Position numbers and translations under genes: made by a program
Notes under the pieces: model-generated
The model's database searches: none
Seen by the model: only the letters and a program-made list of their open reading frames with translations
What the model was told of the DNA's origin: nothing
NCBI GenBank assembly: GCA_046705145.1
Contig: JBJKQO010000049.1
Coordinates: 591-64,590, forward strand
Direction: 5' to 3'
Source of the DNA: Candidatus Woesearchaeota archaeon
GTDB lineage: Archaea > Nanobdellota > Nanobdellia > Woesearchaeales > JBJKQO01
Length of the DNA stretch: 64,000 nt
In this document: positions 4,273-45,355 of the stretch, one piece after another
Numbering within the stretch: the stretch's first letter is position 1
How the letters are laid out: each line of letters starts with the position of its first letter

Positions 4273-4283
4273 GGATTTATCTC

Positions 4284-15578: not shown

Positions 15579-18500
15579 ATGCAAAAAAAGGGGTTGGAAG
15601 GCGTAGCTATGCTGATAGCGATGCTCCTGATAGCTTCAGCTGTCTATGCCGAAAACGATACAGGACCGCTTACATACAATGTTTCAAATGTTTCAGGATC
15701 ATCATCCATAAATGATTCAGCAATAATTCTTTCTGATAATCTTACTTTGCCTCCATCCGAACCAGCTGTTAGTGAGACTCAAAATCTCTCTTATAACACA
15801 TCACCACATTTTGAGTTTCCAGCATACGTTGGATCCGCAAGCATAAGCCACAACAAGATATCGATAGTGAAAAAACAGCAGTTAAACATCTCTGCAACAC
15901 GCGAGTGGGAGATACTTCAACAGGAAGCTGACGGAAAACTCAAGCTGGAAACCTCTCCTTCAGGTGGCCCCACAAGGATAATAGGGACCAAGATAAGGGC
16001 AGGAAAAGAAGTCGCATATGCAAAGGTAGGAATTTCAAAAGAAAATGCAGAGTCATTTATCAGGTCAAACCAAAACCTTCTTGGCCTGGAATATTCCGAC
16101 CTGAAAATATCTAATGAGTATGAATCCGGGCCATTTAAGACATATTCCTTCCAGCAGTACTACATGGATATCCCGGTTTTTGAAGGGGGAGCAGGGATAA
16201 CTCTTGAGAAAGAGGACTATGTGATCCTTTTTGGATCTAATTACCATCAAGGGATCGATCTTGACACTGTACCTTCGATCTCATCAGAAGATGCATTTGA
16301 AGCAGTGGTTTCAGACTTGGGCATCACAAACAAAAGTGATGCTGTCATAAGGAACATTACCCTTATCATATTTCCAGTTGATGAAGAAGACCAGACACGC
16401 TACTATCTTTCATGGAAGGTAGATATAATACTGCCAAAGATGCCTGGCGCATGGACCTATCTTGTCGACGCGCATTCAGGAGATTTAATCAGCAGGATTA
16501 ACCTTCTTAAGGATTATCCTGACAGCATAACAGTGCATGGCACAGCATCTTCACACATATACCCTGAACACGTTTATGATCCTCTGCAACAAAAGCCGCT
16601 TGCAAATGCATATGTCTATTTTTATGATTCTGACCCATCTGATTCTGATGACCTGCTCGGATCAAGCCCCTACACAACAGACAGCAGCGGATATTATGAC
16701 TCAGGATGGATGAGCACAATGACAGATCCAGGACCATCACAGGGCCAGCCTTACATAACCTCATACCTCAAAGGTCCATATCTTGAAGTGGAAGATTATG
16801 ATGGCGAGCCTGAATCATACTACTTTGATCTCACAAGCGACCCATCAGACTCAATAACCCATGATTTTAACATGGGCTACGGAGAGCAGCAGAACGTGTT
16901 TTATCACGCAAACCTCATGCATGATTATTTCAGGCAGGCTCCTTTCAATTTCAGAGGGATGGACTATAGGATGATCGCCACAGTAGGATACGGCACGAAT
17001 TACTGCAACGCATTCTATGACGGAAGAGACATAGCGTTTGGAGACGGCATCCCATCAAGAGGCTGCGGCAACCTCGCCCTTGACTCAGACATAATCTACC
17101 ATGAATACATGCACGGCGTAACGGACAGGATAATCTACCTCCCATATTCAGGCCAGTCAGGAGCGATCGATGAGGCGCTATCAGACTATTACGGATGCTC
17201 CTTTAACGGAAACCCGATACAGGGAGAAGGAACATTTAGCGGAGGAGCAAGAAGGCTTGACAACAGCATGAAATACCCCGACGACTGGGAAGGAGAAGTG
17301 CACCATGACAGCATGATCATATCAGGAGCATTCTGGGAAGTGAGAAGTGCGCTTGGCAGGGACTACACAGACCTTCTTGTATTTCGTGCGCTTAAGATGT
17401 CGCCGCACGCCTACACATTTACAGCATTTCTTGAGAACATGCTTCTTGCAGATGATGACGATGGAGACCTCTCAGACGGCACGCCAAACATGAACGTGAT
17501 ATGCGACGCTTTCAATAGCCATGGCATAGACTCAGATTACTGCGTCGTTGTCTCATGCTCAACATCATGGATAAGCTATCCTTATGATGCAGAAGTTGGA
17601 AATCAGCAGACCTACAGGTGGTCAAACTCGTGCTCTTCATCAAGCACGATGCTAAGATACTGTTCTCCTGACTTTTCAGGATGTTCTTATTCCAATCATG
17701 AGTATTCTACCTCTTCTAAGCAGGGAAGCAAAGGGACGTTTTCTGAATCGATCGTTTTTGATGAGCCAGGAAGCTGGAAGATCTTTGCGCAGGCATCATC
17801 TGACCCTGGAACAGCTTATTCAAGCATCATAACAACAGTTGTCACGCTTCCAAAAACTGACCTTGACGGAGATGGCTATGATGATTCTTCTGACTGCAAC
17901 GATTCTGATGCGAGCATACATCCAGGAGCGACCGAAACATGCAATGCAAAAGATGATGATTGTGACGGAAAAGTTGATGAAAGCCTTCCTGACATCTTTG
18001 ACGGATCTGACACAGGCGTGTGCCAGACAGGCATAAGGTCATGTCAGGGAGGAGAATGGGTGATAGTCCAGGAAAGGATAGATCCAGTCGAAGAGATATG
18101 CGAAAACGGCCTTGATGATGACTGCGACGGAAAAGTTGACGAGTGCCTATCCCTCATTATCAATGCACCTTCAAGCGGAGTGAAAGACACAAGAAGGATA
18201 TACATAAACCTGACTACAAACGGCATTGTCGACAGGATAACCTATACAGACAGCCCACTCGATGATCATCTCACTGAGGACCATGCAGCAAGAAGCTCGG
18301 AAAGGATGCTTTGCGCAAGATGCGACGGATACGGCTATGATTCTGCAAAGATGAAAGTCTTCAGCGAAGGATGGCACAACATAACATTCAAGGCATATGT
18401 AGGGGGTGAGACCTTCAGCAATAATGTAATGATATTTATCGACAGCATATCACCAAGGATATTTTCAACCCTCCCAAAAAAAGGAGGATACACAAACGGC

Positions 18501-18980
18501 TCATTTACAGTCATATTCAGGGAGGAAAATCCCGTCAAGTTCACGCTGGCTTACGGACCAGTTAATGATGAAGAATCATATGATTCATACAGCGAAACAT
18601 ACCAGAAGCAGGATTTCACCTTCTTTACCAACATCACAAGATTAGACGGCATGAAGATGCATTATTGGATGAGGGTCACGGACGTTGCAGGCAATCTTGG
18701 CACAAGCAGGGACAACATAGTATATGTTGACGTGACCAAGCCAAACATAACCCGATTGGATTATGAGATCATAAGAAGAAGCGCGTCATTTGACATTGAC
18801 ATATCCGAAAAAGTCACGCTTGAATACCTTGATGGCAGCAGATGGAATATGATGTGCAGGAACTGTGATAGCTACAGCAGAAGAAAGACCTTCTCAAGAG
18901 GAGACCACAACGTAACTATAAAGGCAACAGACAAAGCAGGAAACACAGATATAAAAGAAATAAGTTTCAGGGTGGATTAA
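15579..18980 (+). CDS. secreted M4 (thermolysin-like) zinc metallopeptidase with FTP/PepSY propeptide, MopE-like Cys-rich repeats and C-terminal beta-sandwich domains
   Basis: N-terminal signal MQKKGLEGVAMLIAMLLIASAVYA. Zinc-binding HEYMHGV with the third ligand in IDEALSDYYG (the HExxH...NEAxSD pattern of family M4, also close to the fungalysin HEYTHG). Three repeats of the CxxxDDDCDGKVDE type (DLDGDGYDDSSDCNDSD...CNAKDDDCDGKVDE). Confidence 0.7.
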   Translation: MQKKGLEGVAMLIAMLLIASAVYAENDTGPLTYNVSNVSGSSSINDSAIILSDNLTLPPSEPAVSETQNLSYNTSPHFEFPAYVGSASISHNKISIVKKQQLNISATREWEILQQEADGKLKLETSPSGGPTRIIGTKIRAGKEVAYAKVGISKENAESFIRSNQNLLGLEYSDLKISNEYESGPFKTYSFQQYYMDIPVFEGGAGITLEKEDYVILFGSNYHQGIDLDTVPSISSEDAFEAVVSDLGITNKSDAVIRNITLIIFPVDEEDQTRYYLSWKVDIILPKMPGAWTYLVDAHSGDLISRINLLKDYPDSITVHGTASSHIYPEHVYDPLQQKPLANAYVYFYDSDPSDSDDLLGSSPYTTDSSGYYDSGWMSTMTDPGPSQGQPYITSYLKGPYLEVEDYDGEPESYYFDLTSDPSDSITHDFNMGYGEQQNVFYHANLMHDYFRQAPFNFRGMDYRMIATVGYGTNYCNAFYDGRDIAFGDGIPSRGCGNLALDSDIIYHEYMHGVTDRIIYLPYSGQSGAIDEALSDYYGCSFNGNPIQGEGTFSGGARRLDNSMKYPDDWEGEVHHDSMIISGAFWEVRSALGRDYTDLLVFRALKMSPHAYTFTAFLENMLLADDDDGDLSDGTPNMNVICDAFNSHGIDSDYCVVVSCSTSWISYPYDAEVGNQQTYRWSNSCSSSSTMLRYCSPDFSGCSYSNHEYSTSSKQGSKGTFSESIVFDEPGSWKIFAQASSDPGTAYSSIITTVVTLPKTDLDGDGYDDSSDCNDSDASIHPGATETCNAKDDDCDGKVDESLPDIFDGSDTGVCQTGIRSCQGGEWVIVQERIDPVEEICENGLDDDCDGKVDECLSLIINAPSSGVKDTRRIYINLTTNGIVDRITYTDSPLDDHLTEDHAARSSERMLCARCDGYGYDSAKMKVFSEGWHNITFKAYVGGETFSNNVMIFIDSISPRIFSTLPKKGGYTNGSFTVIFREENPVKFTLAYGPVNDEESYDSYSETYQKQDFTFFTNITRLDGMKMHYWMRVTDVAGNLGTSRDNIVYVDVTKPNITRLDYEIIRRSASFDIDISEKVTLEYLDGSRWNMMCRNCDSYSRRKTFSRGDHNVTIKATDKAGNTDIKEISFRVD

Positions 18981-19723
18981 TCATTCTCAACCCTTGGTGC
19001 AAGGATGAATGCAAGGTTAAGCTTGTCAACAACCTTGTAGTTTATCTTAAGAGGATAATCCTTGCTGAAAGACACAGATACGCGGTCTGTGAACTTTGAG
19101 CCGCCTGTCATCTTCTTAAGGTATTCTATAGAATATTTTGCCTTGACAGCGTCAGAACCCTCTTTTTCTATCTTTACACCGTCACCTGCCTTCATCTCGA
19201 TCTCAGCCTTTGACAGGTCCCCTTCAGCCTTTATAAGAAGCCTCTTGTCATCAGCGCTAAAAGTAGCGGATTCTGCCACTATATCCGCATCCTCTATAGC
19301 CTCATTGAGCATGTTGCAGGGCATCGTGACAACAACCCCAAACTTGAGGTCAGGAACCTTCTGTTCCTTCTCTTCTATATCAAGGATAGGAAGCGAGAAC
19401 ACCCTCTTTGAGTTTCCTTTTATTGTTATGGAAAGCTTGTTTTCAGAGCCCATCTCAAGGGTTATCATGTCATTTGCTCCTGCTCTTTTGAGCATCTGCT
19501 TGAGGTTTGACAGGTTGATGGCTATCTCTGTCTCCTTCTTGACATTATACTCTGTAAAACAGCTTGAAAGAAGCTTGAATATGACCATCGCCACATTTGC
19601 AGGATCCATCGCGACAAGCTCCACTGCAGTAGGAGTTATCTTGAACCTTGCCTCATTGACAAGCTCAGATATTATTGCGACACTGTCCTTTAGGTATTTT
19701 GGTTCTGCAAGTGTAAGTTTCAT
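18977..19723 (-). CDS. pcn: DNA polymerase sliding clamp PCNA
   Basis: 248 aa from MKLTLAEPKYLKDSVAIISELVNEARFKI.... Length and sequence are typical of archaeal PCNA. The track ORF start at 19756 adds 11 residues. Convergent 4-nt overlap with the peptidase gene. Confidence 0.85.
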   Translation of the reverse strand: MKLTLAEPKYLKDSVAIISELVNEARFKITPTAVELVAMDPANVAMVIFKLLSSCFTEYNVKKETEIAINLSNLKQMLKRAGANDMITLEMGSENKLSITIKGNSKRVFSLPILDIEEKEQKVPDLKFGVVVTMPCNMLNEAIEDADIVAESATFSADDKRLLIKAEGDLSKAEIEMKAGDGVKIEKEGSDAVKAKYSIEYLKKMTGGSKFTDRVSVSFSKDYPLKINYKVVDKLNLAFILAPRVEND

Positions 19724-19899
19724 GTTTAATTCCCCCTTAATACCTGTAAAGAACAAATCTACTATTTAAATATTTTTATGTTTTTTTTAGGGATTCATCC
19801 AAATCCATATTTTATAGTGTTAGTATCGATTTCTTCTTCATATTTTAGTATCACTTTTAAATAGTAAAAATAATAAGGTTTATATATCCTTTCTGATTA

Positions 19900-20993
19900 T
19901 TGTCGTGGATAATGGTCAATGACAGGAAAAAATTATACCGTGAACTGGAGAATACAATCGGAAGAACCCCTTTGTATGAAATTCGTAAGATAAGAATACC
20001 TAACGGCAATACGGTCTTTGCAAAACTAGAGCATATGAACCCTGGGGGAAGTCATTATGACCGGGTGTTTTTAGCGCTTTATCAATATTTTGAACAAGCA
20101 GGCAGGATTATCCCTGGACAGACCCCTTTGGTCGAGACAACTTCAGGGAGTGCAGGAGTCTCTTTTGCTCGTATTGGCAGGATCTTAGGATATGACTGCC
20201 TTGTTGTTTGTCCTGAAGACCTGCCCAGACCAAGGCTTGATGCTATAGCCAGAGAAGGGGCAGAATTAAGACTCACTCCTTCTAGCAGTTATGTGGATGG
20301 GGCGGCTAGAGAACTTGCTAAAATATTTAGAAAAGAAAATAAATCAAGAGCAGCCCAAGGAAAACAACCTTATTTCGGATTTAACCATACCCAGGGCAAG
20401 GCTGCAGAAATCTCTGCTGACTCGATGATACCTGTGATTGATGAGGCTGTAGCTCAGGCAAAAAACATTTATGGTATTGAATTTGATTTAGTAGTCGCTG
20501 TAGGCGGAAACGGAACAACCCTTCTAGGATTTGGGAGAGGAGCAAGAAACTATAACCTGCCTTTGGTTATGTGGGAACCCCTAAGTTCAGGATTATATTA
20601 TAGTAAGTTATTTGGTGAAGAAAAACTTCGTCAAGAATATGGGGATTTACCTAAATCAAAGAAAATAGTATTGGGGGGGTTTATGGAAAAACACCTTATC
20701 CCCTACCTAACATTGAAACCGCATTTGAAGAACAGTTAGTATCTGACGTAATGTTCGTGACTGATTCCCAAACAAGAGAAGCTGCTTTGGATAAAGCAGG
20801 AAATGATCTTCATAGGGTTAACATAGGAAGAATCCCTTTATGGGATCCTATTTTAGCTCAGCTAAACGAAATTGAAGATATGCCTGTAGGAAGGTCCTCT
20901 GCAGGTAACTTGGCCCTTATCTTAGATATATGCAAACGTATGGAAGGGCAAAACATTCTTACTTTTTTCTATGATTCCTTAAGCAGATATTGA
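19900..20993 (+). pseudogene. PLP-dependent enzyme of the cysteine synthase/Trp-synthase-beta fold, interrupted by a frameshift at a G7 homopolymer
   Basis: ORF 19900..20739 (KLEHMNPGGSHYDRV, TTSGSAGVSFA) and ORF 20751..20993 (VTDSQTREAALDKAG...VGRSSAGNLALILDICKR) are the N- and C-terminal parts of one fold-type II PLP enzyme. Inserting one G in the run at 20675..20681 restores a continuous frame (...VYGKTPYPLPNIETAFEEQLVSDVMFVTDSQTREAALDKAG...). The PLP-binding Lys of the SxKDR motif is replaced (GSHYDR). Codon usage is atypical. Confidence 0.5.
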
Positions 20994-21011
20994 ACTTTAA
21001 GAAAAAATCCC

Positions 21012-21311
21012 TTATGCGTTCTCAAGCTCCTTTACACGCTGCTCTATTATGTCGACGTAGAGGTCCTTGTCCATAATGTCCTGCAGGCGCTTCCAGAGCT
21101 CTATGTCGCAAAGGACGTCCTTTATCCACTGGGCGTAGTCATTTTTCCTGTTATCCACATTCACGTGATACATGAACACGTCATAGCTTTGGCCCTTTAT
21201 GTTGTTTATAAGCTCATAGATATTCCTGCATACAGCCCCATTGCACGTCCAAAAAGCCATGTGAGGGGGGCAGTCTGACAGCACCTTTTCCCTTAGCACC
21301 CTTAAATCCAT
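21012..21311 (-). CDS. hypothetical protein sharing a ~70-aa domain with the N-terminus of the divergently encoded neighbour
   Basis: NIYELINNIKGQSYDVFMYHVNVDNRKNDYAQWIKDVLCDIELWKRLQDIMDKDLYVDIIEQRVKELE aligns with NYRELASELKLLSDTEFSVHVSKGIDDFSDWISSNYGDGELLSRLKGVASKKKYAALIEKRIKELE from the 21388 gene. The start chosen is MDLRV at 21311; the track ORF begins at 21347. Confidence 0.35.
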   Translation of the reverse strand: MDLRVLREKVLSDCPPHMAFWTCNGAVCRNIYELINNIKGQSYDVFMYHVNVDNRKNDYAQWIKDVLCDIELWKRLQDIMDKDLYVDIIEQRVKELENA

Positions 21312-21387
21312 AATTTTATATAATCCCCCCCATAGATATATAATCATTTGGTATAACTAGCTAGTTGTACAGCTAAAAAGAGATAAA

Positions 21388-22323
21388 ATGGATCATCTTA
21401 AAAACGTGAGATATGACCGCGCGCTTAAGCTTGCAAACGGCAGGTTTGTCCATAACTACAGGGAGCTTGCATCCGAGCTTAAACTCCTTTCTGACACTGA
21501 GTTCTCGGTCCACGTATCTAAGGGGATAGATGATTTTTCTGACTGGATATCCTCAAATTACGGCGACGGAGAACTTCTCTCAAGACTAAAAGGGGTAGCA
21601 TCAAAAAAGAAGTACGCGGCACTCATAGAAAAAAGGATAAAAGAGCTTGAAAAAGACAGCAGCCCTAAGGAAACAGACAATCAAGAGAGGAGATACAGGG
21701 GCCCGAGCTACAGTTTTCTGTGGATGGTCCTCTCCTTCATACTTGTGATAGTGATAGTATTCTTAAGCACGAACCACTCAGTCAAGGAAGACGAATATTC
21801 TTCTCTTGTAGATTCCCTTAATGAGAAAGTTTCAGATCTTGAGACCCAAAGCGCAATAAAAGACAACAGGATAAGCATCCTTGAATCAGAAAACAAGAAG
21901 CTTTCTGATAATGTAAACATTCTCGAAGAAGAGAACAGCGCAATAGTCTCAAGAGCATCTATCCCAGGCCCAAAAGACAGGATTGCAGAAGACAAGATAA
22001 TGATAAAATCAAACAAGGTAGAGATATCTGTTGATTCCCCTTTGATCGCTAAATTCACAGATACAGGATCCATGCTTCCTTCCATCACCTCAACATCAAA
22101 CGCGATAGAGATAGTGCCTGATTCTCCCGCAGAAATATCTGTCGGAGACATCGTAAGCTACAAGACAGAAGAAGGGCTGGTTGTCATACACAGGGTTATT
22201 GAGACAGGCACGGACCAGGAAGGATGGTATGGGGTGATGCAGGGAGACAACAGGAACATACCGGACCAGGATAAAGTAAGGTTTTCCCAGGTAGAAAGGA
22301 TAGTTGTAGCGATAATCTACTGA
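21388..22323 (+). CDS. membrane-anchored protein with N-terminal cytoplasmic domain, coiled coil and C-terminal S26/S24-type (signal peptidase I-like) domain
   Basis: TM helix FLWMVLSFILVIVIVFLS, a heptad-rich segment (LNEKVSDLETQSAIKDNRISILESENKKLSDNVNILEEENSAIV) and a C-terminal peptidase-like region carrying GSMLPSI (catalytic Ser context), GDIVSYK...GLVVIHRVIE and GDNRNIPD. Confidence 0.5.
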   Translation: MDHLKNVRYDRALKLANGRFVHNYRELASELKLLSDTEFSVHVSKGIDDFSDWISSNYGDGELLSRLKGVASKKKYAALIEKRIKELEKDSSPKETDNQERRYRGPSYSFLWMVLSFILVIVIVFLSTNHSVKEDEYSSLVDSLNEKVSDLETQSAIKDNRISILESENKKLSDNVNILEEENSAIVSRASIPGPKDRIAEDKIMIKSNKVEISVDSPLIAKFTDTGSMLPSITSTSNAIEIVPDSPAEISVGDIVSYKTEEGLVVIHRVIETGTDQEGWYGVMQGDNRNIPDQDKVRFSQVERIVVAIIY

Positions 22324-22328
22324 CCTGC

Positions 22329-25300
22329 CTATCTAGACCTAATAAGTTTCTCAAGTATTAACTTAAGCTCAGGATTGAAATTCTGACCTTCATCAACCAT
22401 CACCATTATATCTTTAAGTGAATAGAAACTTACATCGGCTGGGAATCTCACCCCTGCTTCCTGCCTTTCAGTTATTATTGCCTTATAAGCTATCAGTACC
22501 TTATCCGGGCCGTCTTTTGATGAATAGATATCCTTGCTGAAGAAGAAAAGCATAGGGCTTATACCAATTGACTTCTTGATCTTCCTTAGCGCTGTTTCCT
22601 TAGGGCTTTCTCCTGGTCTTACTTTCTCTCTAAATGCAGTGATAGCAGGCCCATCTTCTTCTGATGAGAGAGTCTTTTGCAGCGCAAGCTCCCCTTTGCT
22701 GTTAAAGAGCAGCACATATGTTATTTCAGGAATGCTGTGCCCTTCATGGATCTGGCCTGAATAGATGCTAAAAGGCGCAGGACCATTTGCATCATCATCA
22801 GTAGGCTTGCTTAACTCTTTTGCTATCCTTTTTTCCCTGGACTGCCTCATCTTGATCTCATCATAATCAATCTCTGCTTTTTTTTGGGACATCTCTTTTT
22901 TTGCTGGAGGGGTAGGTGTAGGTGGCACATATCTATATTTTGGTGGAATATCCCCTTCAGGTTTTTCTTCTTTTACTTTAGGCAAAGCAGTATCCTGATC
23001 CTTAGGTGGCTTCTTTTCTTCTTTTGTCTTTCGGTAAAAAAGGATCAACGCCATGACTATCATCAAAAGAATGATCCAGACATACCAGAAACCAAGGAAT
23101 GACTTTCCATACTCGCCTAATCCTCCCTCTTTTTCTTCTGGTAATGGGATCTCATCGTTAGACCTATCTTTTTGGGTCTCTTCCACAGAAGTACCCTCTT
23201 CTGGCTTTTCTTCACTGATATTACCACCTCCCTTAACGATCTCGCATTCTCCGCAGTCCTCCGGGCAGCTTGAGCATGTCTCGCCATACATGCCAAGGCA
23301 GATACCATCTCCGCACCTTATAGGTATGGATCCTGCCCCACCTGAAGGGCTTGAAGCTATAGTTGTAACAGGAGCGCTCGCAGGAGTTGCAGGAGTGCCC
23401 CTCATCGCAGAATGCCTTAGGTTGCTTACCTTTATCCTTGTCCCGAGGTCCTCGCAGACAAGCCCGTTCTTGTGGACTATACTTGAGTTTCCAAGGCATG
23501 ATGAGAAGTCAGTCTCGTTTGGTCCGGTACATGATGAGGTCATGTTAGATATCCTTATTATCGGAGCGTCCTTCACGCAAAGCGCCACAAAATTATTGTC
23601 TTTTATGTAAAGGCTCTTGTTTGTGCTGAGCTGGCCGCTCATGTTGACTATCAGATAGTTTGCCGAGAGGTTTATCGTTATGTTTGCGAGATCAAGCTTT
23701 GATGCGCTGAAATTATGCGTGAAGTTCATTATGGTATCTGTCGAGTTATAGAACACGACCTGCCGCCTTCCGTCATAAGAGCTAAGGTCTGATGAGCCGT
23801 CTACCCTTATGTTCAGGCCGCTTGCTCCTTCACCACTCACATTCTCAAGGTTCCAGTTAAGGTTATCTTCATTGTCATACACGCCGTCTCCATCAGTGTC
23901 AGTGACATATGACTGGTCAGGATATATCCTGAAATCATAATCCCTCGTGACATTGACGTTTCCTGCATCATCATAGATGTAGAACCTGAAAGAATGGTTC
24001 CCTGAAGTTGCGTTTTTTACAGCCCTAATACTGGCTCTTGACGAGGACAGGTTTACGAAAGAATCGTTTGACCATGACCCGCTCATGTTTGTCGAGAATA
24101 TATAACCTTTCAGCTTATAGTTGTCAAACATGTTCAGCACGACGCTGAAGTTCTCATTGTTGAAAACAGGAGTCTTGTTTTTTATCCCTGAATAATAAGG
24201 CAGGATGTTATCTATCCTGACATATGCAGTTTCAGAGCTCCTGACATTGTTTGAAGGGGTGGCGTTATCAAGCACGTGCAGCGTAACATTCTTGATTCCA
24301 GTCTCATTATCTATGACGACACTTATGTTCCACTGGCTCCAGCTTCCCGTGACCTTGCTTCCGAGGACAAGCCACATAGTGGTGTTTCCCTGCGTGTTGT
24401 TAAGATGCGCAAGCTCTATAAGGGTGTGGTTGAGCCCTGCTCCTGAATCCTGCGAGTCCTTGGCTTCAAGGGTTATCATGACAGGCTGGCTGTTTCTTGC
24501 AGAGGTCTGGTTCTCAGGATATATCACCCGAAGATCTCTTGCATAAGGCATAGACTTGTCTATCGTATAGTTCATGATCCTGGAAGCATTGTTTAGCGAA
24601 GCATCAAATGCAGTCGCCCTGATAGTATATCCTGCTCCGTCAGAAAGCGAGGATACATCCCAGCTGCAGTCATAAGGAGAGGAAGTAGTGTTGCATATCT
24701 GCGTGAACCCTACACTTGAGTTCTTATACTCAAAGAGGACATGACTGATGCCTCCTGAATCATCAGAAGGAACTGTCCGAAGAGTAACGTTTCCGTTAAC
24801 GTATGAGTTATTTCTAGGGGAATAAAACTCAAGCGTAGGAGAGGTCATATCCCTCACAGCAAGGGGCAGATGATCATAATAATCTGTTCCCCCAAAGCGG
24901 CCCACAAGATAAGGATCGTTGCATATCCTGTCTCCGTTCGCATCCTTGCACGTGTCAGAATATCCTGTTGCAGTAGGGTTTGTCCAGTAGTTTCCGCCGA
25001 TATAGCTTTGGCCCATTATGTTTATCCCTGAAGAATAGCTTGTGTTAAACCGGGATATCGCATCAAGATACACGTTATAGGAATTGTTGAGAAGGTTATC
25101 ATATACCTTTACAGTTCCGGAGCTGCCCTGATAATCATCTATGTATATCCCTACTTCAGCGCTGTCCTTGACAGTCGAATTTCTCAGGATGATATCTCCA
25201 GAAGTGACTGAAGCAAAGCCATAGACATCTGAGCATAGACTGCTTGAGGCTACGGCACTGCGCTTGGAATCGATATAATACGCGCCTATAAGGTTGTTAT

Positions 25301-28300
25301 CGCTTCTTGCTCTTGTCAGATTTGTGCTGTTTGAATACTCGACCCAGAACCCGACAAAACAAGACGTGAGATTTGAGTCTGTTATCTTGATGTCCTTTGA
25401 TCTGCTGGCGTGGATCCCTGATGCTTCATATTCATAATAGCCTCCTCCCCCAAAATCCCTGATGCTAAGCTTATCTGCAAAGATGTAAGATGAGTCTCTC
25501 ACAAAGAGGCCTGAAACAAGCCCTCCTGTAAAGTTTGATCCTGTCACGTTTGACCTGGATTCTGAACCCAGCTGAAGCGAGGTCCTTTCGCTCGTTATCC
25601 TAAGCCCATGATACGAGTTCATGCGGCCGCCATAGCTTTGCACTCCTGTGTTGCTGCCGTTTACTGTCACATTTACCAGGCGGCTTGAGTTTGCGCTGCT
25701 CATATACACACCATTTTCGTTGAAATTGTAGATAGAGCAGTTCCTTATCGTTATGTTCCTTATCCCTGAATCGCTTTTCTGGACCTTGATGCCTATGTCG
25801 GGCAGGCTGCCAGAAGCGATGATATACTTCCCATCACAATCGATATCCACATCATCTGCAGACACGGTTATACAGGTGCCATCTTCTGATGTTGTGATAT
25901 TCCCTTCAAGAGAATATGATCCTTTTTGTGTCACTTCCTCACAGCCTGTAATCCTTCCTGTCGATGCTGCTGTATAGTTGATCATTATCGTGCGGTTCTC
26001 CCCCCAGCCTGCATGATAATATATATCATTTGAAAGGCAGTTCCAGGTATAGTTCCCCTTGTATAATGAGATCTGCCACGAGCTTGAGTTTGAGACATTG
26101 CTTATGTTTGTTGTCTGGTTAAGCTTTAGGCTCAGGTTACGGCGGTCCGTGATAAACAGGCTTATGTTTGTCAGGGTGTCAGGATCTGCAGCAGAACAGT
26201 TAAACGTGATTGTGGGAGGGACAGACGTATCATTATAATAGCCCTGTCTTGGCAGGTTCAGGCTTACAGAAGGCGAGCTTGTCAGCACAAGCACAGACCT
26301 TGTCTCAGTGCTGTTGCAGTTTCCAGACCCGTCGCACGCTGTAGCGTTGATATAATACCTTCCTAGCGGAAGCGAGCTGTAGTTCACAAAATAAGGTGAT
26401 GAAACTGAAGACTCCCTCGCATACGTTCCAGTCGAGTTATACATGAATATCGTTATGTTTGTCAGGTTATGATCTGATGCAGTCACATTTATGCTTATCC
26501 AGTACTGCGTCCTGTTCCCCTCGCCGGTAGTATGGCTTGAGAAATTTATGGCAGGATAAATCGTGTCATTGACTGTTATAGCGGATGATGAGGACCTGAA
26601 GTTACCTGCCAGGTCTAAGGCAAGCAAAGATATGTTATACCTTCCTTTCACAGAAATGTTTTCCGGGCTGAGATTGATGCTTCCCAGAGCTGAAGAGGCG
26701 CTGAAAAGCACAGCCCCTCCAGGATAGGTTATGTTAAACGTCACAGCACCCAGGTTCGCGTCACTTGCTGACCAGTTTACCATGACAGAATCATAACCAT
26801 ATTCTGCATCAGAATCATTTATAGTGATAGCAGCTGAAGGTGATGAATCATCGACAGTGAAGCTATAGGGAGGGGTCTGGTTGCGGTTTCCTGTAGTGTC
26901 ATTAAAGAACCACATATAGCTTATCGTCGATGCAGTGATCCTTTTTGAAGCAGAGATCACAGTCCCGTTTTGGTAGGTCTGCGCAGTATCATTTTCCCAT
27001 GATGACCCGTTATAGAAGGAAAAGATATACAGGTCAGGATTTTTCTCGATTATGGTCAGGTTAAAATACACATAATCTCCGACAACAGTGGAAGCGCTCA
27101 TATTCGTCGCATTAGACTCCCATCTTGGATAGACCGCGTCAAGGATAAGGGTCCGGATACTTGTGCGATTGTAATTTTTAGAGGTATCATTGACGCTTGC
27201 ATTGATATAATACGTATCATCTTTCAGGCTTGTAAAGTTTATCGTAAGAGGGAATGATGAGGATGTCGTCGTGTTGACAAGCTCATTGCTTGAGTTAAAA
27301 ATGCTTATCCTTATCAGGTCAGTATTTGTCTCTGTCCCGCTTGCGTTCACAAATATGTAATCTTGGGATCTTGCCTCAAAGTTTGATGTCTTTTCGCCGA
27401 ATTCTATCTTGGGGATAGTGTCGTCCAAAAGGACATACCTTACCTGCGACCTGTTGCACTTGTACTCATCGCATGCTGAAGCATTGTAGTGATACAGGCC
27501 ATCAGCAAGAGAGGTGAAATTGATCGTATTTGGGGAAAATGCCGTAATCGACTGGTTGATCAACGAGGATCCAAAGTAAAGATACACGTTTGCAGACCTA
27601 AGGTTATGATCTGATGTTGAAACATTAACAAAGATAAAATCGCCTGATATGTTCCCGGATACTGAGCCAGTCATCGTCAAGGTAGGATAAAGCGTATCGT
27701 TTACGGTAAAAGCGAAATACGTCGAGTTTGAGTTACCGGCATTATCTTCCGCATAGACAGATATAGTGTAGTTCCCGACATTTGAGAAATTTGCAGGAGA
27801 CAACACGACACTGCCAGACACAAGCTGTGATGAGAACACAGAAGGCCCGAACTCTGAAGTGATGTTTACCATCCTGCTCCTCAGGTTTGAATCGTTTGCT
27901 GTCCAGTTGACATATATCCCTTCAGCCTTGTATTCGATAAGAGAATCATTGGCGTATAGCCTTGCTACAGGGTTTGTGGTGTCAAGATAGATGGCTCTTG
28001 ACAAGGTCTTGTTGAAATGTCCAGCAGAATCATTTATCGAAGCGTTTACAGTGTACAATCCATCAGCAAGGGACGTGAAATTCGAAGCGAATGAAGACAC
28101 AGACCTTTGTGTCGTAAATGCGGAACCTGCAAGAGACCCTGAAGAATCATACAGCTTTATGGTGGTGTTCCTGTTGTTTGATTCAGAAAGGTTCAAAAGC
28201 ACGTATATGTAATCCTGCGAGATGTTTCCTGCAGTTGATGTCAGGGCAGCATATCCTATCTTTGGCAGGACAAGATCGACAGTAATATTTGACGATATCA

Positions 28301-31300
28301 AAGCGACGTTTGATGCATTATCCCTGCAGTATACAGTAAAGTTGTATGTCTGGGACTGGAACGATGAAAAAGTCACGTTGCAAGGTGATGAATTTCCGCA
28401 AGTTAGGGTCCTTGTGGCAGCGCCAACAGATATGTTGCATCCCATCCAGGCAGACACGTTGTCTTTTGCAGTCCAGTTAAACACGACTGAAGATGACGAG
28501 AGGTAAGCTCCTGCTTCTGGATCGTTAAGCGTCATCTTAGGAGCGTTTGCATCGACATAGAACCTTGCGCTTTCAGTCCTGTTGTTTTTTGCAGTATCCT
28601 CAGCAAAAACAGTTATGTTATATATCCCATCAGGCAGGACGCTTACCCCTACTATGTCCTGCCAGGCATGCCTTGATGTGCTAGTCGCATATATGGAAGA
28701 GTTATGCTGTACCCTATCTCCTGAAGAGTTTGTTATGTTATAATAGGTGTAGTTAAGCGATGCATCCTGCGCTACCATATCCATCGTGAAATTTGAGCTG
28801 TAGAACAATTCCTTCTTTGGAGGGGTTATCAGCTGGATCACAGGCTTAACATTATCCAGATAAAACGACACGTTATCATTTGCCATGTTTCCCAAGGTGT
28901 CATTAGCATACACAACCAAGGTCACGTTCCACATGACATCATTGTGAGCTGTAGTGTCCCATGCGCTGTCCCAGGAACCTGTATAGTTAAGCTTTCCCTG
29001 GAAAAGCACCTGTGTCCTGTTTGAGGTGTTAAGTATATAGTACCATGAATCATCAACTGAAAGCAGGCTGTCTGAAACAGTTGTCCTTATATACACAAGA
29101 TATCCTGTGCTTTGGTTTTCAGTAGGCGTGTCAAAAGATATGAGGGGCGCACTCGTGTCAACTGTCAGCCTTCTTGGCGTAGTCGTATTGGAGTTGCCTG
29201 CAGCATCCACGCATCTTATGTACCACATATTACGCCTTTGCGCAATACCTGAAACATTGAGTGTAATAGTAGACCCAGATCTTGAAGATGAATTTGTTGA
29301 TCTAGGAAGATAGCTGACAGACCCTTCCTGATCTATATAGACTGAACAGTTGTTTGTCGAGTTATCAGTTATAGAGAAAGTAAAATTGACAGATGAGGAA
29401 GTAGCATTAAAGAGGTCTGCAGGCGAAACTATGCTTATAGCAGGAGAGCTTGTATCAAGCGTGATGATCCTTGTGGTCACGGACTCAGCATTATCGCTTG
29501 TATCAAAAGCAGTAGCATTTATGCGATAGGTTCCTGCAGGAAGATCGTTAAACTGGACATAATACTTTTTCTGGGTTGTTGAAGTATGGTTCTTCAAGCC
29601 CGATGCGTTGTATAAGTAGATAGTTATGTTATCAAAATTATTATCATCTGCTGTAACGTTTACGCGGATATATGACTGGCTGAGGTTTCCTGATGAAGTG
29701 GTCTTTTGGCCGTAGTTTATTGTAGGAGGATTGATATCAGTTATTGTTACGTTCCACCTGGTTGTCTGGTTTGTTATGTTCTCTCCTGCATCAACAGTTG
29801 CGTATGCATAGAACTCATACACACCTCCGACAGAACCTGTAGCATTCACAAAGAAGGTTACAATAGTTGAATTGCTCTTGTTCAGGCTTACAATATAAGG
29901 GTTTGCAGACTTATTCGTAAAGAATGGTGTTGCTCCAACAGTAGTTGAGACAAGGCCTCCTTTAGAGCTTACAGCGCTGCAAGGGCTGGAGTTAAGAAGC
30001 TGGGCAAACCCGTTGCCGATGCTTACAGCGCAACCATGCTCCCAATCACAACCCATATATGAATCATCATCAGTGATCGCGATCCCCCCAGAGCCATGGC
30101 AGATGTAATCAAGCTCATAAGGCGTGCGGAGGCATGGGAAACTTGTGTTATAATGCATTTCTGTAAGGCCATAATCGGTCTTAAGCTGGTTAAGATAAGA
30201 CCTTTTGATTATCAATACTTTCCCTGCTGCAAATGCACCTGAGACAGCACTATAGTTATAGCCTGAAGGATAATTCACGCTACCAGAGAGTATAAGGATA
30301 TTGTTTTTCCAAAACCCATTTGAAGACACGGGCGTCGTATAACTGTAGCCTGATGCAGAGGTATTAAGCGTTGCTCCTATGCTTGTTGCGACCTGCTGTC
30401 CGACTGCCTTTGCTCCGTTGTTATAATCTCCTGAATCTCCAGTCTCCCAGACCGCTATCTTATAGTTCGAATATGGATCAAGCGATACAGATACATTTCC
30501 GCAATCCTCATACATGCATGTGACATTCACAGTAACATTAAACCATCTTTTCTGTGGCGCGTCAATATTTGTCTGAGGATAAACTCTTGTTATCCTGATA
30601 GTGGGTTCTGTCAGGTTTATCATCCTTGATGAAAGCGTAGCATTATTTCCTGATGTGTCATTTGCTGTCGCATTGATGTAATACACGCCTGCTTTCAGAT
30701 CATTGTACCTAAGATATGCTCCGCTTGTGTGGGTAGTCATATTGACAAGACCAGTTGAATTGTATAGGTACACCCTTACCTTGTCAAGATACGCATCGCT
30801 TGCAGTGATGTTTGCTATGACATAGGTCTGCATAGGCCTCTTTCCTGCTGAAGTTGTCGTCTCACCAAAACTTATGGCTGGGTCGGTCATATCCTTGATA
30901 GTAACGTTCCAATGGGAGGTTATGTTCCCGACAGACATATGCCCAGTAATGTTAGAATATGCGTAAAACTCGTAAGAGTGGTCCAAAGGACCTGTTGCGT
31001 TGACAAAGAAAGTGATGATCCCGCTTTGCCCCGAAGACAAGGTGAGATTGTGTGGGTTTGCCGACTTATTCGTGTAAAATGGTGTTGTGCCTGCTATAGT
31101 CCTGATCAGCCCGCCCTTTACGCTTACTGCGCTGCACGGGCTTGTGTTAAGAAGCTGGGCAAAAGCGTTGCCTACGCTTGCAGCGCATCCGTGTTCCCAG
31201 TCGCAGCCCATATAGTTTGAGTCATCAGTAATTGCCATCCCTCCTGAATTATCACAGATGTAATCAAGCTCGTAAGGGTTTCTTAAGCAGTTAAAAGTTG

Positions 31301-34300
31301 AATTGTAATGAAGCTCAGTTAGGTTGTATACAGATTTGAGCTGGTTAAAATATGATCTTTTTACTATCAAGATCTGTCCGGCTCTAAACGCAGTTGATAT
31401 AGCAGAATAATTGTATCCAGAGGGGTAATTCAGGCTTCCTGAAAGGATAAGTATGTTATTATTCCAAAACCCATTTGAATATTTGGGAGTTGTTGAGCTA
31501 TATCCTGAAACCGAAGTGTTCAGCACTGCTCCTATGCTTGTCCCAAGCTGCTGTCCGACTGCCTTTGCTCCGTTGTTATAATCTCCTGAGTCTCCTGTCT
31601 CCCATACTGCGACCTTATAGTTCGTATATGGGTCAAGGGACACATTGACCTGGCCGCAGTCCTTGTATAAGCATGTCACGTTGACCGTGACATTGAAAAA
31701 TGAAAGCCTTTCAACATCTATATCTGAAAGTGGATACACCCTTTTGAGGCTTAATGCATAGACTGCAAATACGCGCTTGCTCCAAACATCAGTCTTCACC
31801 CAGTTCTTTGAGGTATCATTGATGTACCATGTCCAGTTTACCGTAACATTATTTGAGTTGATAGTCTTAACCACACTGATGCTCCTGCTATCATTATACC
31901 TCTGTGCAGAATCGTTCCTCCAGACTGAACCATTATACCAGCTGAAGATATAATGGCTTGGGCTTCTTTCAGTAACAGTAACATTGAAGTAGACCCTTGA
32001 GCCAGCACCAGTGCCATTAGTAAGGTTGGTCTTGTTGCCAGACCATGAGGGGGCAGTGAGGTCTGCAATAGTCACGTTCCACCTTATCGTGCGGTTATTG
32101 ACACTCATGTTTGTTGTCATGTTCACGAAAGCGAAAAATTCATAAGTCGAGTTAATATCGCCTGTAGCATTGACATGGAACATCACAACCTGGCTTTGCC
32201 TGCTTGTGAGGCTAATATTATAGGGGTTTCTTGACTTGTTTGTTGCAAAAGGAGTAGCGTTGCTTACAGTGCTTATGATGCTTTTTGATGATGACAAAAG
32301 CATAATATTAACGAAACCTGCTGCGTTGTTTGCTCCGCTCGTGTTGATCTGGTACGTACCTGAATTGTATGAGCTGCCGCCATAACCCCCTCCCTGGTCA
32401 TTTCCGTTTCCGCCGCTATAGCCTCCCCCGCCGCCAGCGCCATCAGAATAAAGCGAGCCGCCCCCACCAAATCCGCCGTAGGATGAACCTCCTGCTCCTC
32501 CGTTTACAAATGACTTTCCGCCGTTTGTTCCTGATATGCTTGAACCATCGCCAGTGAATCCTCCTCCTCCAGCCCCACGCTCATTGCTGTAGCCTGAATC
32601 AGCAGCGCCTCCGTTTCCTGCGGTTCCAGTTGTTGATGCTGTCCTTGCGGCTATCCCTCCATTACCGTTTGAATAAGGATTATTTCCTGCGGCTCCGCCT
32701 CCACCGCCTGCTATGACAAGTATATCTGAGACATCATCAGGAGTTCCGTCAGGCCCGTTTTTGATAACATAGGTCCCGCCACCGCCTCCACCGCCCTCAT
32801 CATTTCCTGATGGGACCTGGCCTACAAGAATATTGATAATTTCTCCTTTTTGAAGAATGAAAGTACCAGACACCTTTGCGCCATATCCTGCTGTCCTATA
32901 ATCTCCATTATCCCCTTTTGCGCCGGCAGCAGTTATCCTATATGTACCGGTCTGCGGAACAGTCCATCTCTGTATGCCTGATGTTACTGTTACCTGTCCT
33001 GAGAGAGTCTTTCCTGAATAAGCAGTGTTGCAGCTTGTCTGGCTTGGGCCTGCTGTCCCTGTAGCGCTGCATGTGGTAAAATTATATGCGGTCCCGACTG
33101 CAGGATCAAGAGTCACGTTTATCTTTCCGCAATCAAGATATAAGCAGGTTATGTTCATCGTCACGTTAAAATATTGCATCCTGTCAACAGTGATGCTTCC
33201 TGAAGGATAGATAAGCTGAAGCCCAAGGCCATACTGATAGTATAAGCTTTTGCTCCAAACATCCGTCTTGACCCTGTTCCCATAGCTGTCATTGATGTAC
33301 CATGTCCAGTTTATCATCCTTCCTTTTATCGTCTTATTTACCTTTACCTTCTGGCCGTCCGTATAGCTGACTGCAGAATCATTTCGCCAGACAGACCCGT
33401 TGTACCAGCTGAAGACATACTTTCCAGGATTCCTTTCAGATATCGTGATATTGAAATAGGCTGATTGTCCTGGGGCGGTCGCTACTGTCAGGTTTGTAAG
33501 ATTCTGCGACCATGAAGGAGAGACCAGGTCAGAGATAGTGACGTTCCAGAAGGAAGTCATGTTGCTTATGTCTGTATCAGAAGTCAGGTTCGCATAAGCG
33601 TTGAAAAGATGGGTGCTTCCAATATTTCCTGTCGCGTTTACATAGAATGTGACCAACTGACTTTGGCCATTATTAAGAGAGATATTGTAAGGGTTTCTAG
33701 ACTTATTCGTGTAAAATGGGGTTGTGCCAGCTTCTATGCTTACAGTTCCTGATTTGATAGATGCACAAGGGCTTGTGTTGATAAGCTGAGCAAACCCGTT
33801 TCCTACAGTTACTGCGCATGCCCCTTCCCAATCACATCCCTGATACCCGGAGAAATCAGAGATCGCCATACCGCCGTTAGGATGGCACATATAATCCAGG
33901 ATGTAAGGTGTGTAAAGGCAAGGGAAGGAAGTTGTGTAATTTACGTCTGTAAAGCCATAATCGGTCTTTAACTGGTTGAAATATGTCCTGTCCATAATAA
34001 TCGTCTTGCCTCCTGAAAAAGCAGTTGATATGGCACTATAATTAAATCCGCTAGGATAATTGTAAGTATATGCAGACGTGACTATGATATCTTTTGTCCA
34101 GAACGGGTGGGAATATACTGGGGGGGTTGCGGAATTGCCGGAAGCAGTCGTGTTGAACGTTATTCCCATGCTTGTTGCGACCTGCTGTGCAGCCGCATAA
34201 GAGCCGGAGGAATAATCCGCTGCATCTCCAAGCTCCCAAACAACAACACTCCGCTGTGATGAGGGATCAAGGCTTACATTGACAGTCCCGCAATCCTGGT

Positions 34301-45277: not shown

Positions 45278-45280
45278 TGT

Positions 45281-45355
45281 GCATTATTGCTCAACATTAT
45301 TGATAATTATTATTGTTTATAAATAACGTTGATTATCATTAGTGAGCATTATTGC
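45281..45355 (-). promoter_or_regulatory. promoter region of the regulator/giant-protein operon: TATA box flanked by direct repeats GCATTATTGC
   Basis: tttataaata is at 45316..45325, about 43 nt upstream of the ATG at 45277. A 10-nt direct repeat gcattattgc occurs at 45281..45290 and 45346..45355, with additional ATTATTG iterations between. Confidence 0.4.

What the first reader, a model, noticed from the sequence alone, without database searches (positions are those of the whole stretch)
22332..22740. Cytoplasmic tail of the giant protein ends in a Nudix-fold domain with a degenerate catalytic box
The last roughly 135 aa align with the bona fide Nudix hydrolase encoded at 6226..6624 in this window. 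For example, PGESPKETALRKIKKSIGI aligns with SGETPEKGAVREAKEESGF, flanked by matching beta-strand segments (ITYVLLFNSKGELALQKT with ADCIIEKEGKILMLAR). In the giant protein the REUxEE glutamates are replaced (RKIKKS) and the first Gly of the box is missing. This suggests a binding rather than catalytic Nudix domain. An intracellular nucleotide- or ADP-ribose-binding module on a giant extracellular adhesin would imply inside-out signalling or nucleotide-dependent regulation. I am not aware of a described precedent.
Basis: partly seen in the sequence, partly recalled or inferred. Interest (0 to 1): 0.7.

Follow-up and report, generated by a model that had tools for sequence, protein, structure and literature searches.

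The report
Dead Nudix domain on adhesin tail
A 7,586-residue surface protein of a DPANN-type archaeon ends, on the cytoplasmic side of its single membrane anchor, in a real Nudix-fold domain that has lost every residue needed for catalysis; this fusion turned up only once in the sequence libraries searched and its function is unknown.

Summary

It is not a copy of the in-window MutT-like Nudix (6226..6624). It derives from the YfcD/DR0079/IDI-like subfamily, ~160-aa standalone proteins of Patescibacteria and DPANN archaea.

The box reads RKIKKS. The EE pair is invariant in 159/159 relatives. The His cluster, the GGH motif and the residue aligned with the conserved Arg of IDI's 'TRR' motif are also gone, while the hydrophobic core is kept.

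So catalysis is excluded, and retention of the ancestral ligand pocket is doubtful. ADP-ribose sensing is unsupported.

A search of 1.84 billion representative proteins found no other giant protein with this tail, and related stalk domains end in short plain tails. The best reading is a lineage-specific gene fusion that yields a folded pseudoenzyme module; a neutral passenger is a serious rival.

Partial precedents exist (TRPM2 NUDT9-H, NUDIX domains in Omnitrophota giant proteins). Interest is moderate to low.

The parts
22329..45089 (-). Giant ORF of 7,586 aa plus stop codon. A type-I surface protein.
   Evidence: ORF list and translation. Pfam finds Laminin_G_3 x5, GLUG, Big_7, Big_13. An independent Logan contig is 100% identical over 19361..25323.
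44994..45089 (-). N-terminal signal-peptide-like segment, aa 1-32: MKQKRGRLDVRAS-LIVLLVVSFFIAKGVLAVI.
   Evidence: Kyte-Doolittle peak of 2.83 at aa 14-32, preceded by basic residues.
23100..44993 (-). Ectodomain, aa 33-7330. It has 396 N-glycosylation sequons and adhesin-type domains.
23034..23099 (-). Single transmembrane helix, aa 7331-7352: FLGFWYVWIILLMIVMALILFY.
   Evidence: It is the only other hydrophobic segment in the protein (score 2.65). Flanking charge is -2 outside and +2 inside.
22755..23033 (-). Cytoplasmic linker, aa 7353-7445. It is Pro/Lys/Glu-rich and probably disordered. It contains internal Met7400 (22890..22892) and Met7414 (22848..22850). Its last ~15 aa are a degenerate remnant of the subfamily's N-terminal hairpin.
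   Evidence: Composition and charge. pLDDT below 50 for the part that was modelled. Alignment A1 columns 9-34.
22332..22754 (-). Nudix-fold domain, aa 7446-7586, of the YfcD/DR0079/IDI-like subfamily. Catalytically dead.
22560..22628 (-). Degenerate Nudix box, aa 7488-7510: E-KVRPG-E-SPKETAL-R-K-I-K-K-S-I-G-I, against the consensus G-x5-E-x7-R-E-U-x-E-E-x-G-U.
   Evidence: Alignment A1. E76 and E77 (tail numbering) are invariant in 159/159 relatives, and the first Glu is kept in 151/159.
6226..6624 (+). Comparator only: a canonical standalone Nudix hydrolase with an intact REAKEESG box. It is MutT/NudG-like and belongs to a different subfamily.
   Evidence: Pfam NUDIX at 61.2 bits. Best NCBIfam matches are PRK10546 and MutT. 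The tail-family HMM gives only 26 bits, over the box region.

Best explanation
Shown:
- The giant gene encodes a type-I, heavily glycosylated surface protein of a DPANN-type archaeon.
- Its 234-aa cytoplasmic tail has two parts: a ~93-aa Pro/Lys/Glu-rich flexible linker, then a 141-aa Nudix-fold domain.
- The domain is homologous to ~160-aa standalone Nudix proteins of the YfcD/DR0079/IDI-like (COG1443-type) subfamily, which are common in Patescibacteria and DPANN archaea.
- The domain has lost the three REUXEE glutamates (RKIKKS), the first box Gly, the GGH motif (now REK), the HR..H histidines, the Arg of the family's 'LQKR' motif and the His of the C-terminal FHPE motif.
- It keeps most of the hydrophobic core and an intact reading frame.

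Inferred:
- A whole Nudix gene was captured by gene fusion in this lineage. Met7414 lies 30 residues before the family's 'IY' motif, the same distance as the start codon of the standalone relative P0007 (read directly from the sequences).
- The domain can neither hydrolyse nor isomerise.
- Its most likely present role is a folded, membrane-tethered pseudoenzyme module on the cytoplasmic face. It would act as a docking handle for a protein partner or an anionic ligand, not as a sensor of the ancestral Nudix substrate. Four of the replaced pocket positions are now Lys or Arg.

Which partner or ligand is involved cannot be told from sequence.
For: Identity and fold.

Subfamily:
- The profile matches E. 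coli YfcD 2fkb at E 1.7e-28, DR0079 1q27 at 2.3e-22 and IDI at 1e-16 to 1e-18.
- NCBIfam puts YfcD first for relatives.
- JGI names relatives 'isopentenyldiphosphate isomerase'. NCBI names them NUDIX in Woesearchaeota and Patescibacteria.

Loss of function:
- The EE pair is invariant in 159/159 relatives but is K and S here.
- The first Glu is kept in 151/159, the GGH Gly in 152/159, and the 'LQKR' Arg in 143/159 (T here).
- The alignment register to IDI puts these positions under IDI's 'LH', 'TRR', 'CGH' and 'YELG' motifs. From memory these are H32, R51, C67/H69 and E87.

Fold retention:
- Within the core, 33/40 conserved hydrophobic columns are kept against 14/27 conserved polar columns (Fisher p 0.013).
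- There is no stop or frameshift in the 234 tail codons.
- The model has pLDDT 86.8.

Lineage-specific fusion:
- Relatives of the membrane-proximal ectodomain (P0044, Aenigmatarchaeota, 58% identical; P0045, 48%) end in a TM helix plus 9-70-aa plain tails.
- The only giant protein among all hits is this one.

Not an assembly artefact: an independent Logan assembly is identical across the junction. The GC and GC3 of the domain lie within the window's range, at the 17th-22nd percentile.

Host: PCNA is present, and the best GMP-synthase relatives, at 64-66% identity, are DPANN archaea.
Against: - The fusion is a singleton. No second genome carries it, so purifying selection on the tail could not be measured.
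- The losses include probable ligand-contact residues, so a binding role has no positive evidence.
- The AlphaFold confidence comes from an alignment of bona fide Nudix proteins. The single-sequence model was poor, at pLDDT 50.9.
- The relatives used for the HMM were chosen by similarity to the tail, which inflates the 99.5-bit score somewhat.
- The hydrophobic-versus-polar contrast is modest (p 0.05 over all columns, 0.013 in the core).
Confidence: 0.5

Rival explanations
1. Neutral passenger. A standalone Nudix gene lying just downstream became fused to the giant gene in this lineage, by loss of a stop codon or by a small rearrangement. It is now a functionless, slowly decaying appendage, tolerated because it hangs on a flexible cytoplasmic linker.
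For: - The architecture is a singleton in 1.84 billion representatives and in the genome and metagenome scans.
- All catalytic and pocket residues are lost, not only the catalytic ones.
- The subfamily's N-terminal hairpin is degenerate (columns 9-34).
- Met7414 sits where the ancestral start codon would be.
- Related stalk proteins have short tails.
Against: - The frame is open through 234 codons in a 44% GC genome. For the 88-codon linker alone the chance of no stop is about 0.006 (my estimate from base composition).
- The hydrophobic core is preferentially retained.
- About 70% divergence from every known relative implies long evolution without disruption.
- No standalone Nudix gene lies next to large surface-protein genes in the related loci examined.
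Confidence: 0.3
2. Nested gene. The Nudix-like part is also, or only, translated as a separate ~170-190-aa cytoplasmic protein from the internal in-frame Met7400 (22892) or Met7414 (22850).
For: - Two in-frame ATGs lie at the right distance upstream of the domain.
- An A/T-rich AAATATA motif lies ~44 nt upstream of the 22892 ATG.
Against: - No stop codon separates it from the giant ORF.
- No convincing ribosome-binding site or promoter at the proper spacing is visible, and the available promoter scanner does not cover archaea.
- A/T-rich motifs are expected by chance in this genome.
- Even as a separate protein it would be catalytically dead.
Confidence: 0.07
3. Still an enzyme. The domain keeps hydrolase or isomerase activity through non-canonical residues, for example E7494, R7502 and E7574.
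For: Gx5E Glu7494, Arg7502, Gly7509 and the C-terminal PE motif are retained. Some pseudoenzymes have relocated catalytic residues (PMC10211241 abstract).
Against: - The EE pair is invariant in 159/159 relatives and absent here.
- The positions that align with IDI's metal-site and Cys motifs are all replaced.
- From memory, not tested here: mutating the equivalent glutamates in MutT-type enzymes lowers kcat by orders of magnitude.
Confidence: 0.05
4. Artefact. A chimeric assembly or frame error has joined an unrelated Nudix gene to the giant ORF.
For: The source is a metagenome-derived contig, and the architecture is a singleton.
Against: - A separate Logan assembly of run SRR31309759 is 100% identical over 5,963 nt spanning downstream genes, tail, TM helix and ~760 aa of ectodomain. 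It may derive from the same reads.
- No repeats sit at the junction.
- Composition is uniform.
- The frame is continuous.
Confidence: 0.02

Closest known systems
YfcD / DR0079 / IDI-like Nudix subfamily (PDB 2fkb, 1q27; COG1443-type proteins of Patescibacteria and DPANN)
   Different: All 159 relatives examined are short proteins of 97-620 aa with an intact EE pair. The tail is fused behind a TM helix of a 7,586-aa protein. It has RKIKKS and lacks the HR..H, GGH and FHPE His residues and the N-terminal hairpin.
TRPM2 NUDT9-H domain
   Same: A C-terminal, cytosolic Nudix-fold domain on an integral membrane protein. In human TRPM2 it is catalytically inactive because of Nudix-box mutations (PMC6461439 abstract; PMC4917252 abstract).
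   Different: [quoted passage not shown] The tail here is YfcD/IDI-like with a remodelled pocket. Its carrier is an archaeal single-pass adhesin, not a channel. No ligand is known.
Non-catalytic Nudix-fold modules: NrtR and AraR transcription factors, MutY C-terminal domain
   Different: Those domains are fused to DNA-binding or glycosylase domains in soluble proteins. There is no specific sequence relation to the tail beyond the fold.
NUDIX domains inside giant prokaryotic proteins (Omnitrophota 'Archaeovorins', actinobacterial giants)
   Same: Giant membrane-associated proteins of uncultivated, host-dependent microbes that contain NUDIX domains (bioRxiv 10.1101/2023.11.21.568195; bioRxiv 10.64898/2026.06.07.730766).
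   Different: Those are bacterial, mostly multi-TM, multi-enzyme polypeptides with many catalytic domains, annotated as hydrolases. Here an archaeal single-pass adhesin carries one lone, degenerate Nudix at its extreme C-terminus.
Type 1 isopentenyl-diphosphate isomerase
   Different: The positions that align with IDI's catalytic and metal-site motifs are replaced in the tail. Neither the relatives (GGH instead of CGH) nor the tail have the catalytic Cys.

Membership tests
Nudix superfamily (fold, Pfam PF00293) | Alpha/beta/alpha Nudix fold | tested here: met
Nudix superfamily (fold, Pfam PF00293) | Profile score above Pfam's gathering threshold | tested here: met
   23.4 bits against 21.1 for the isolated 156 aa. 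It drops to 16.8 bits, below the cut-off, when scanned inside a 4,000-aa piece, so routine annotation of the whole protein would miss it.
Nudix hydrolases (catalytically competent) | Nudix box Gx5Ex7REUXEEXGU with the metal-binding glutamates | tested here: not met
   The box reads E-x5-E-x7-R-K-I-K-K-S-I-G-I. The EE pair is invariant in 159/159 subfamily members.
YfcD/DR0079/IDI-like Nudix subfamily | Significant sequence homology over the whole domain to subfamily members | tested here: met
   phmmer E 7e-12 to 1e-3 for about 40 members. The HMM built without the tail scores 99.5 bits over aa 7446-7584. The subfamily profile matches YfcD at E 1.7e-28.
YfcD/DR0079/IDI-like Nudix subfamily | Subfamily motifs: N-terminal 'VDE-D-VIG' hairpin, HR..H, P..W.TS.GGH, FHPEL | tested here: not met
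   The hairpin is degenerate or absent. H->P, R->E, H->Y, W deleted, GGH->REK, FHPEL->FNPEL.
Type 1 IPP isomerase | Catalytic Cys and Glu, and a His/Glu metal site | tested here: not met
   The aligned positions are R/E/K, P and Y in the tail. Residue roles in IDI are recalled from memory.
TRPM2-type ligand-sensing Nudix tail | Cytosolic C-terminal Nudix domain with an inactivated box on a membrane protein | tested here: met
   Topology and degenerate box. This is a resemblance of architecture only.
TRPM2-type ligand-sensing Nudix tail | NUDT9/ADPRase-subfamily homology | tested here: not met
   The closest subfamily is YfcD/IDI-like, not ADPRase.
TRPM2-type ligand-sensing Nudix tail | ADP-ribose binding | not testable with these tools
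   This needs binding assays on the purified domain.
NrtR/AraR Nudix-type regulators | Nudix domain fused to a winged-helix DNA-binding domain | tested here: not met
   The protein ends 2 residues after the Nudix domain. No other Pfam or NCBIfam domain is found in the tail.
Archaeovorin-type giant proteins | [quoted passage not shown] | tested here: not met
   The host is archaeal (PCNA; DPANN-like GuaA). The ectodomain holds adhesin-type domains only. The definition comes from bioRxiv 10.1101/2023.11.21.568195.

The most novel reading that the evidence does not exclude
The dead Nudix domain is a selected cytoplasmic receiver on a giant host-attachment protein of a DPANN symbiont. Tethered to the membrane by a ~90-aa flexible linker, its remodelled and now partly basic former diphosphate site would bind a phosphorylated metabolite, a polyprenyl-phosphate or acidic lipid head-group, or a cytoplasmic protein. 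This would couple the cell's internal state to the display, clustering or turnover of the adhesin. It would be an archaeal counterpart of inside-out signalling, built from a pseudoenzyme.
Probability: 0.1. Interest if true: 0.7.

Novelty: new variant of a known kind. Interest (0 to 1): 0.33.

Why it matters
If the tail is functional, it would be the first case I could find of an archaeal giant surface protein carrying a structured cytoplasmic pseudoenzyme domain. That would give an experimental handle, in the form of a small and expressible 141-aa domain, on how DPANN cells connect their huge host-contact proteins to the cytoplasm.

It also adds a clean example of a Nudix pseudoenzyme from the YfcD/IDI-like branch.

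There is a practical lesson for annotation too. The domain falls below Pfam's threshold when the full-length protein is scanned (16.8 against 21.1 bits), so such tails are easily missed in giant proteins.

If it is a neutral fusion, it is an ordinary by-product of gene-dense, fast-evolving genomes.

Tried and rejected
- Word-index homolog search with the tail alone found nothing. The exhaustive search was needed.
- Three of the strongest exhaustive hits (P0002, P0003, P0006; E 4e-30 to 7e-11) are spurious. They are tandem repeats 'VYILKLNSKGEVEWQKT' matching the strand ITYVLLFNSKGELALQKT many times. I excluded them.
- The single-sequence AlphaFold model was unusable, at pLDDT 50.9.
- Scans of GTDB species genomes and JGI metagenomes for the tail found no relative.
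- I looked for a standalone Nudix gene downstream of related surface-protein genes, and for large surface genes next to standalone relatives. Neither was found, and the neighbourhoods of relatives are not conserved.
- I considered a duplication of the in-window Nudix (6226..6624) and rejected it. It belongs to a different subfamily.
- I considered a PGF-CTERM/archaeosortase or LPXTG-type sorting signal at the TM helix. There is no significant match; the best is LPXTG_anchor at E 0.33.
- I considered recent horizontal acquisition. The domain's GC and GC3 are unremarkable.
- I considered the 16-nt perfect inverted match between the tail and the neighbouring gene as a sign of recombination. Window-wide counts of such matches are within the range of shuffles.
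- The Rfam scan of the window found nothing.
- Taxonomic names for the closest relatives were mostly unavailable.
Full report
**What is at the coordinates**

The finding lies at the 3' end of a single uninterrupted ORF, 22329..45089 on the minus strand, which encodes 7,586 aa.

The protein starts with a basic stretch followed by a hydrophobic, signal-peptide-like segment at aa 14-32. It has exactly one other hydrophobic segment, at aa 7331-7352 (FLGFWYVWIILLMIVMALILFY). It ends with a 234-aa tail.

The region between the two hydrophobic segments carries five Laminin_G_3 domains, GLUG motifs, and Big_7 and Big_13 Ig-like domains. It is rich in Asn, Ser and Thr, has 396 N-x-S/T sequons (5.4 per 100 aa) and 1.4% Cys. 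The tail has no sequon, no Cys and no Trp. It is 13% Lys and 10% Glu, and begins RKTK directly after the helix. By the usual topology rules this is a type-I surface protein with a cytoplasmic tail. That is an inference, not a measurement.

The host is archaeal, since a PCNA gene lies at 18977..19753. Its GMP synthase is 64-66% identical to those of Woesearchaeota, Nanoarchaeota and Aenigmatarchaeota MAGs. The host is therefore a DPANN-type archaeon.

An independently assembled Logan contig from run SRR31309759 is 100% identical over 19361..25323. That stretch spans the downstream genes, the tail, the TM helix and about 760 aa of ectodomain.

**Is the tail a Nudix domain?**

Yes. The evidence is as follows.
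- The isolated last 156 aa pass Pfam's NUDIX gathering score (23.4 against 21.1 bits, E 6.7e-5).
- Scanned within a 4,000-aa piece the score falls to 16.8 bits. This explains why such a tail would be missed in routine annotation.
- A word-index search found no relatives.
- An exhaustive phmmer search of 1.84 billion representative proteins found 43 hits at E<=1e-3.
- Three strong hits are repeat artefacts ('VYILKLNSKGEVEWQKT' repeats).
- The rest are Nudix proteins, mostly ~160 aa standalone. The best is P0004 at E 7e-12, 33% identical over 122 aa.
- An HMM built from 33 of them without the tail scores the tail 99.5 bits over aa 7446-7584. The best of 2,000 shuffles scores 15.5.
- With this alignment AlphaFold gives pLDDT 86.8 and pTM 0.81, with residues 25-156 well ordered. 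Without the alignment the model was poor, at pLDDT 50.9.
- Foldseek returns 543 PDB hits at E<=1e-3; all 50 listed are Nudix-fold proteins.

BLASTP sees only the 20-aa box (E 0.019). hhalign reproduces the proposed strand and box pairing at 95.5% probability.

**Which Nudix?**

It is not a relative of the in-window gene, which is MutT/NudG-like.

The profile of the tail and its relatives matches E. coli YfcD (2fkb, E 1.7e-28), Deinococcus DR0079 (1q27, 2.3e-22) and type-1 IPP isomerases (1e-16 to 1e-18). NCBIfam ranks YfcD first for the relatives.

A profile search of the 5.8-billion-protein set returns 234 members, of which the best 120 are listed. Those listed are all 136-283 aa. JGI names them 'isopentenyldiphosphate isomerase'. 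NCBI names them NUDIX proteins of Patescibacteria, Woesearchaeota or 'archaeon'.

A few fusions exist in this subfamily. One is behind a glycosyltransferase (P0005, 620 aa, Patescibacteria). One is behind what reads as a SAM methyltransferase (P0029, my reading of the sequence). One is a tandem pair (P0018).

None of the hits other than this very protein is a large or membrane protein.

**The degenerate active site**

Against Gx5Ex7REUXEEXGU the tail reads E7488-KVRPG-E7494-SPKETAL-R7502-K-I-K-K-S-I-G7509-I.

In 159 aligned relatives the last two glutamates are invariant (159/159), and the first is kept in 151/159. The tail has K, K and S.

The damage goes beyond the box:
- H7454P, R7455E, H7458Y.
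- R7473T. This Arg is kept in 143/159 relatives.
- The conserved Trp is deleted.
- S7485A.
- GGH is replaced by REK at 7487-7489.
- H7572N in the C-terminal FHPEL motif.
- The N-terminal 'VDE-D-VIG' hairpin is unrecognisable.

The HMM-to-IDI alignments place these positions under IDI's 'LH', 'TRR', 'CGH' and 'YELG' motifs. From memory these are the metal ligands H32 and H69, the catalytic C67, the diphosphate-binding R51 and the Mg-binding E87.

By contrast, 33 of 40 conserved hydrophobic columns of the core keep a hydrophobic residue, against 14 of 27 conserved polar, Gly or Pro columns (Fisher p 0.013).

The pattern is that of a fold kept while the chemistry is discarded.

**How unusual is the architecture?**

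Within the searches possible here the fusion is a singleton.
- There were no hits in GTDB species genomes or JGI metagenomes.
- No other giant protein appeared in the exhaustive search.
- The protein's 90% cluster has a single member.

Two proteins share the membrane-proximal ectodomain. P0044, from an Aenigmatarchaeota MAG, is 58% identical over 155 aa. P0045 is 48% identical. Both end in a TM helix followed by plain tails of about 70 and 9 aa. The Nudix tail is therefore a lineage-specific addition to a variable class of DPANN surface proteins.

Met7414 lies 30 residues upstream of the family's 'IY' motif. That is the same distance as the start codon of the standalone relative P0007 (sequences). 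This fits capture of an entire gene.

I found no synteny evidence for the donor. Neighbourhoods of standalone relatives are not conserved and contain no large surface genes. The 64-kb window holds no second copy of this subfamily.

The first-position E-to-K change (R-K) is shared only with a Woesearchaeota cluster (P0008 / RLE48321.1). This hints at, but does not show, a DPANN origin.

**Mechanism**

Shown:
- A dead Nudix-fold domain is encoded in frame behind the TM helix.
- It follows a 93-aa Pro/Lys/Glu-rich linker.

Inferred:
- The domain folds.
- It sits in the cytoplasm on a flexible tether.
- It cannot hydrolyse or isomerise.

I consider it most likely (about 0.5) that it persists as a pseudoenzyme docking module for a protein or an anionic ligand. 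Four of the replaced pocket residues are now Lys or Arg.

The main rival (about 0.3) is a selectively neutral passenger from a recent fusion. The singleton status and the wholesale loss of pocket residues fit that reading. The intact frame, the retained core and the ~70% divergence from all relatives argue against simple decay.

Minor rivals are a nested gene started at Met7400 or Met7414, residual non-canonical catalysis, and misassembly (argued against).

**Comparison with what is known**

By descent the domain belongs to the YfcD/DR0079/IDI-like branch of the Nudix superfamily. It fails the motif tests for a competent hydrolase or isomerase.

In architecture it resembles the TRPM2 NUDT9-H domain, a cytosolic C-terminal Nudix domain. 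In human TRPM2 that domain is inactive through Nudix-box mutations (PMC6461439; PMC4917252). However, NUDT9-H is an ADPRase-type domain on an ion channel.

Other non-catalytic Nudix folds (NrtR, AraR, MutY C-terminal domain) appear among the structural neighbours.

NUDIX domains have also been reported as recurrent components of giant, membrane-associated proteins of Omnitrophota ('Archaeovorins') and of actinobacterial giants (bioRxiv 10.1101/2023.11.21.568195; bioRxiv 10.64898/2026.06.07.730766). Those are bacterial multi-enzyme polypeptides.

The general ideas therefore have precedents. The specific combination of archaeal single-pass giant adhesin, lone C-terminal cytoplasmic domain, YfcD/IDI-like origin and complete loss of both metal sites does not, as far as these searches and the literature library show.

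**Verdict**

I rate it a new variant of a known kind, with moderate-to-low interest (0.33). It is a single occurrence with no evidence yet of selection or function. It is, however, a well-defined and easily testable 141-aa domain.

Noticed in passing
window 21388..22323 (+): The gene converging on the giant ORF has stop codons only 5 nt apart from it. It encodes a 311-aa protein with an N-terminal soluble part, one TM helix and a coiled-coil-like stretch. Its C-terminal part matches archaeal signal peptidase I (TIGR02228, E 8.3e-9, 35.5 bits, below the 51.85 cut-off; motif TGSMLPS). This is an atypical signal-peptidase-like protein next to a giant secreted protein.
   Followed up: partly
window 21661..21676 and 22592..22607: A perfect 16-nt inverted match encodes SPKET both in the 311-aa neighbour and inside the tail's degenerate Nudix box. 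Window-wide, five inverted 16-mer pairs exist against 0-3 in triplet shuffles, so it is probably chance.
   Followed up: yes
proteins P0002, P0003, P0006 (not in the window): These are large repeat proteins built of dozens of ~45-aa units ('...DVYILKLNSKGEVEWQKTFGG...') interleaved with Big-like domains. They score E 4e-30 to 7e-11 against the tail purely through one beta-strand-like segment. This is a trap for automated homology calls.
   Followed up: partly
window 45090..45747: The intergenic region upstream of the giant gene is unusually long, at 658 nt. It holds nested long-range inverted repeats: 45401-45419 with 45687-45705 (19 nt, 95% complementary) and 45435-45446 with 45672-45683 (12 nt, 100%). 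They enclose about 225 nt. There is no Rfam match in the window.
   Followed up: no
window 15579..18980 (+): A second large secreted protein of 1,133 aa combines a thermolysin-type M4 peptidase domain, a MopE-type metal-binding motif and a Big_13 domain.
   Followed up: no
window about 30000..34300 (-), giant protein aa ~3600-5050: Three long internal repeats of a ~500-aa module ('VWE(L/T)GD..DY..G..A..Q...' through 'CDWE..CA..VGN.FAQL') are visible in the translation. Between the first and second copies lies a Gly-rich block at aa ~4095-4240. A fibrillar-collagen C-terminal/fibrinogen-like match lies at aa 2015-2101 (Pfam COLFI, 28.0 bits).
   Followed up: no
protein P0005 (Patescibacteria, MFH1405090.1) and P0029: The same Nudix subfamily, with an intact box, occurs fused to the C-terminus of a glycosyltransferase (620 aa) and of a methyltransferase-like protein (384 aa). 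The subfamily is therefore fusion-prone in ultra-small-genome lineages.
   Followed up: partly
window 45748..46170 (+): The gene divergent from the giant gene encodes a 140-aa protein with tandem CBS domains (Pfam, E 3.2e-26). Next to it is a GlmS-like amidotransferase at 46254..48035.
   Followed up: no
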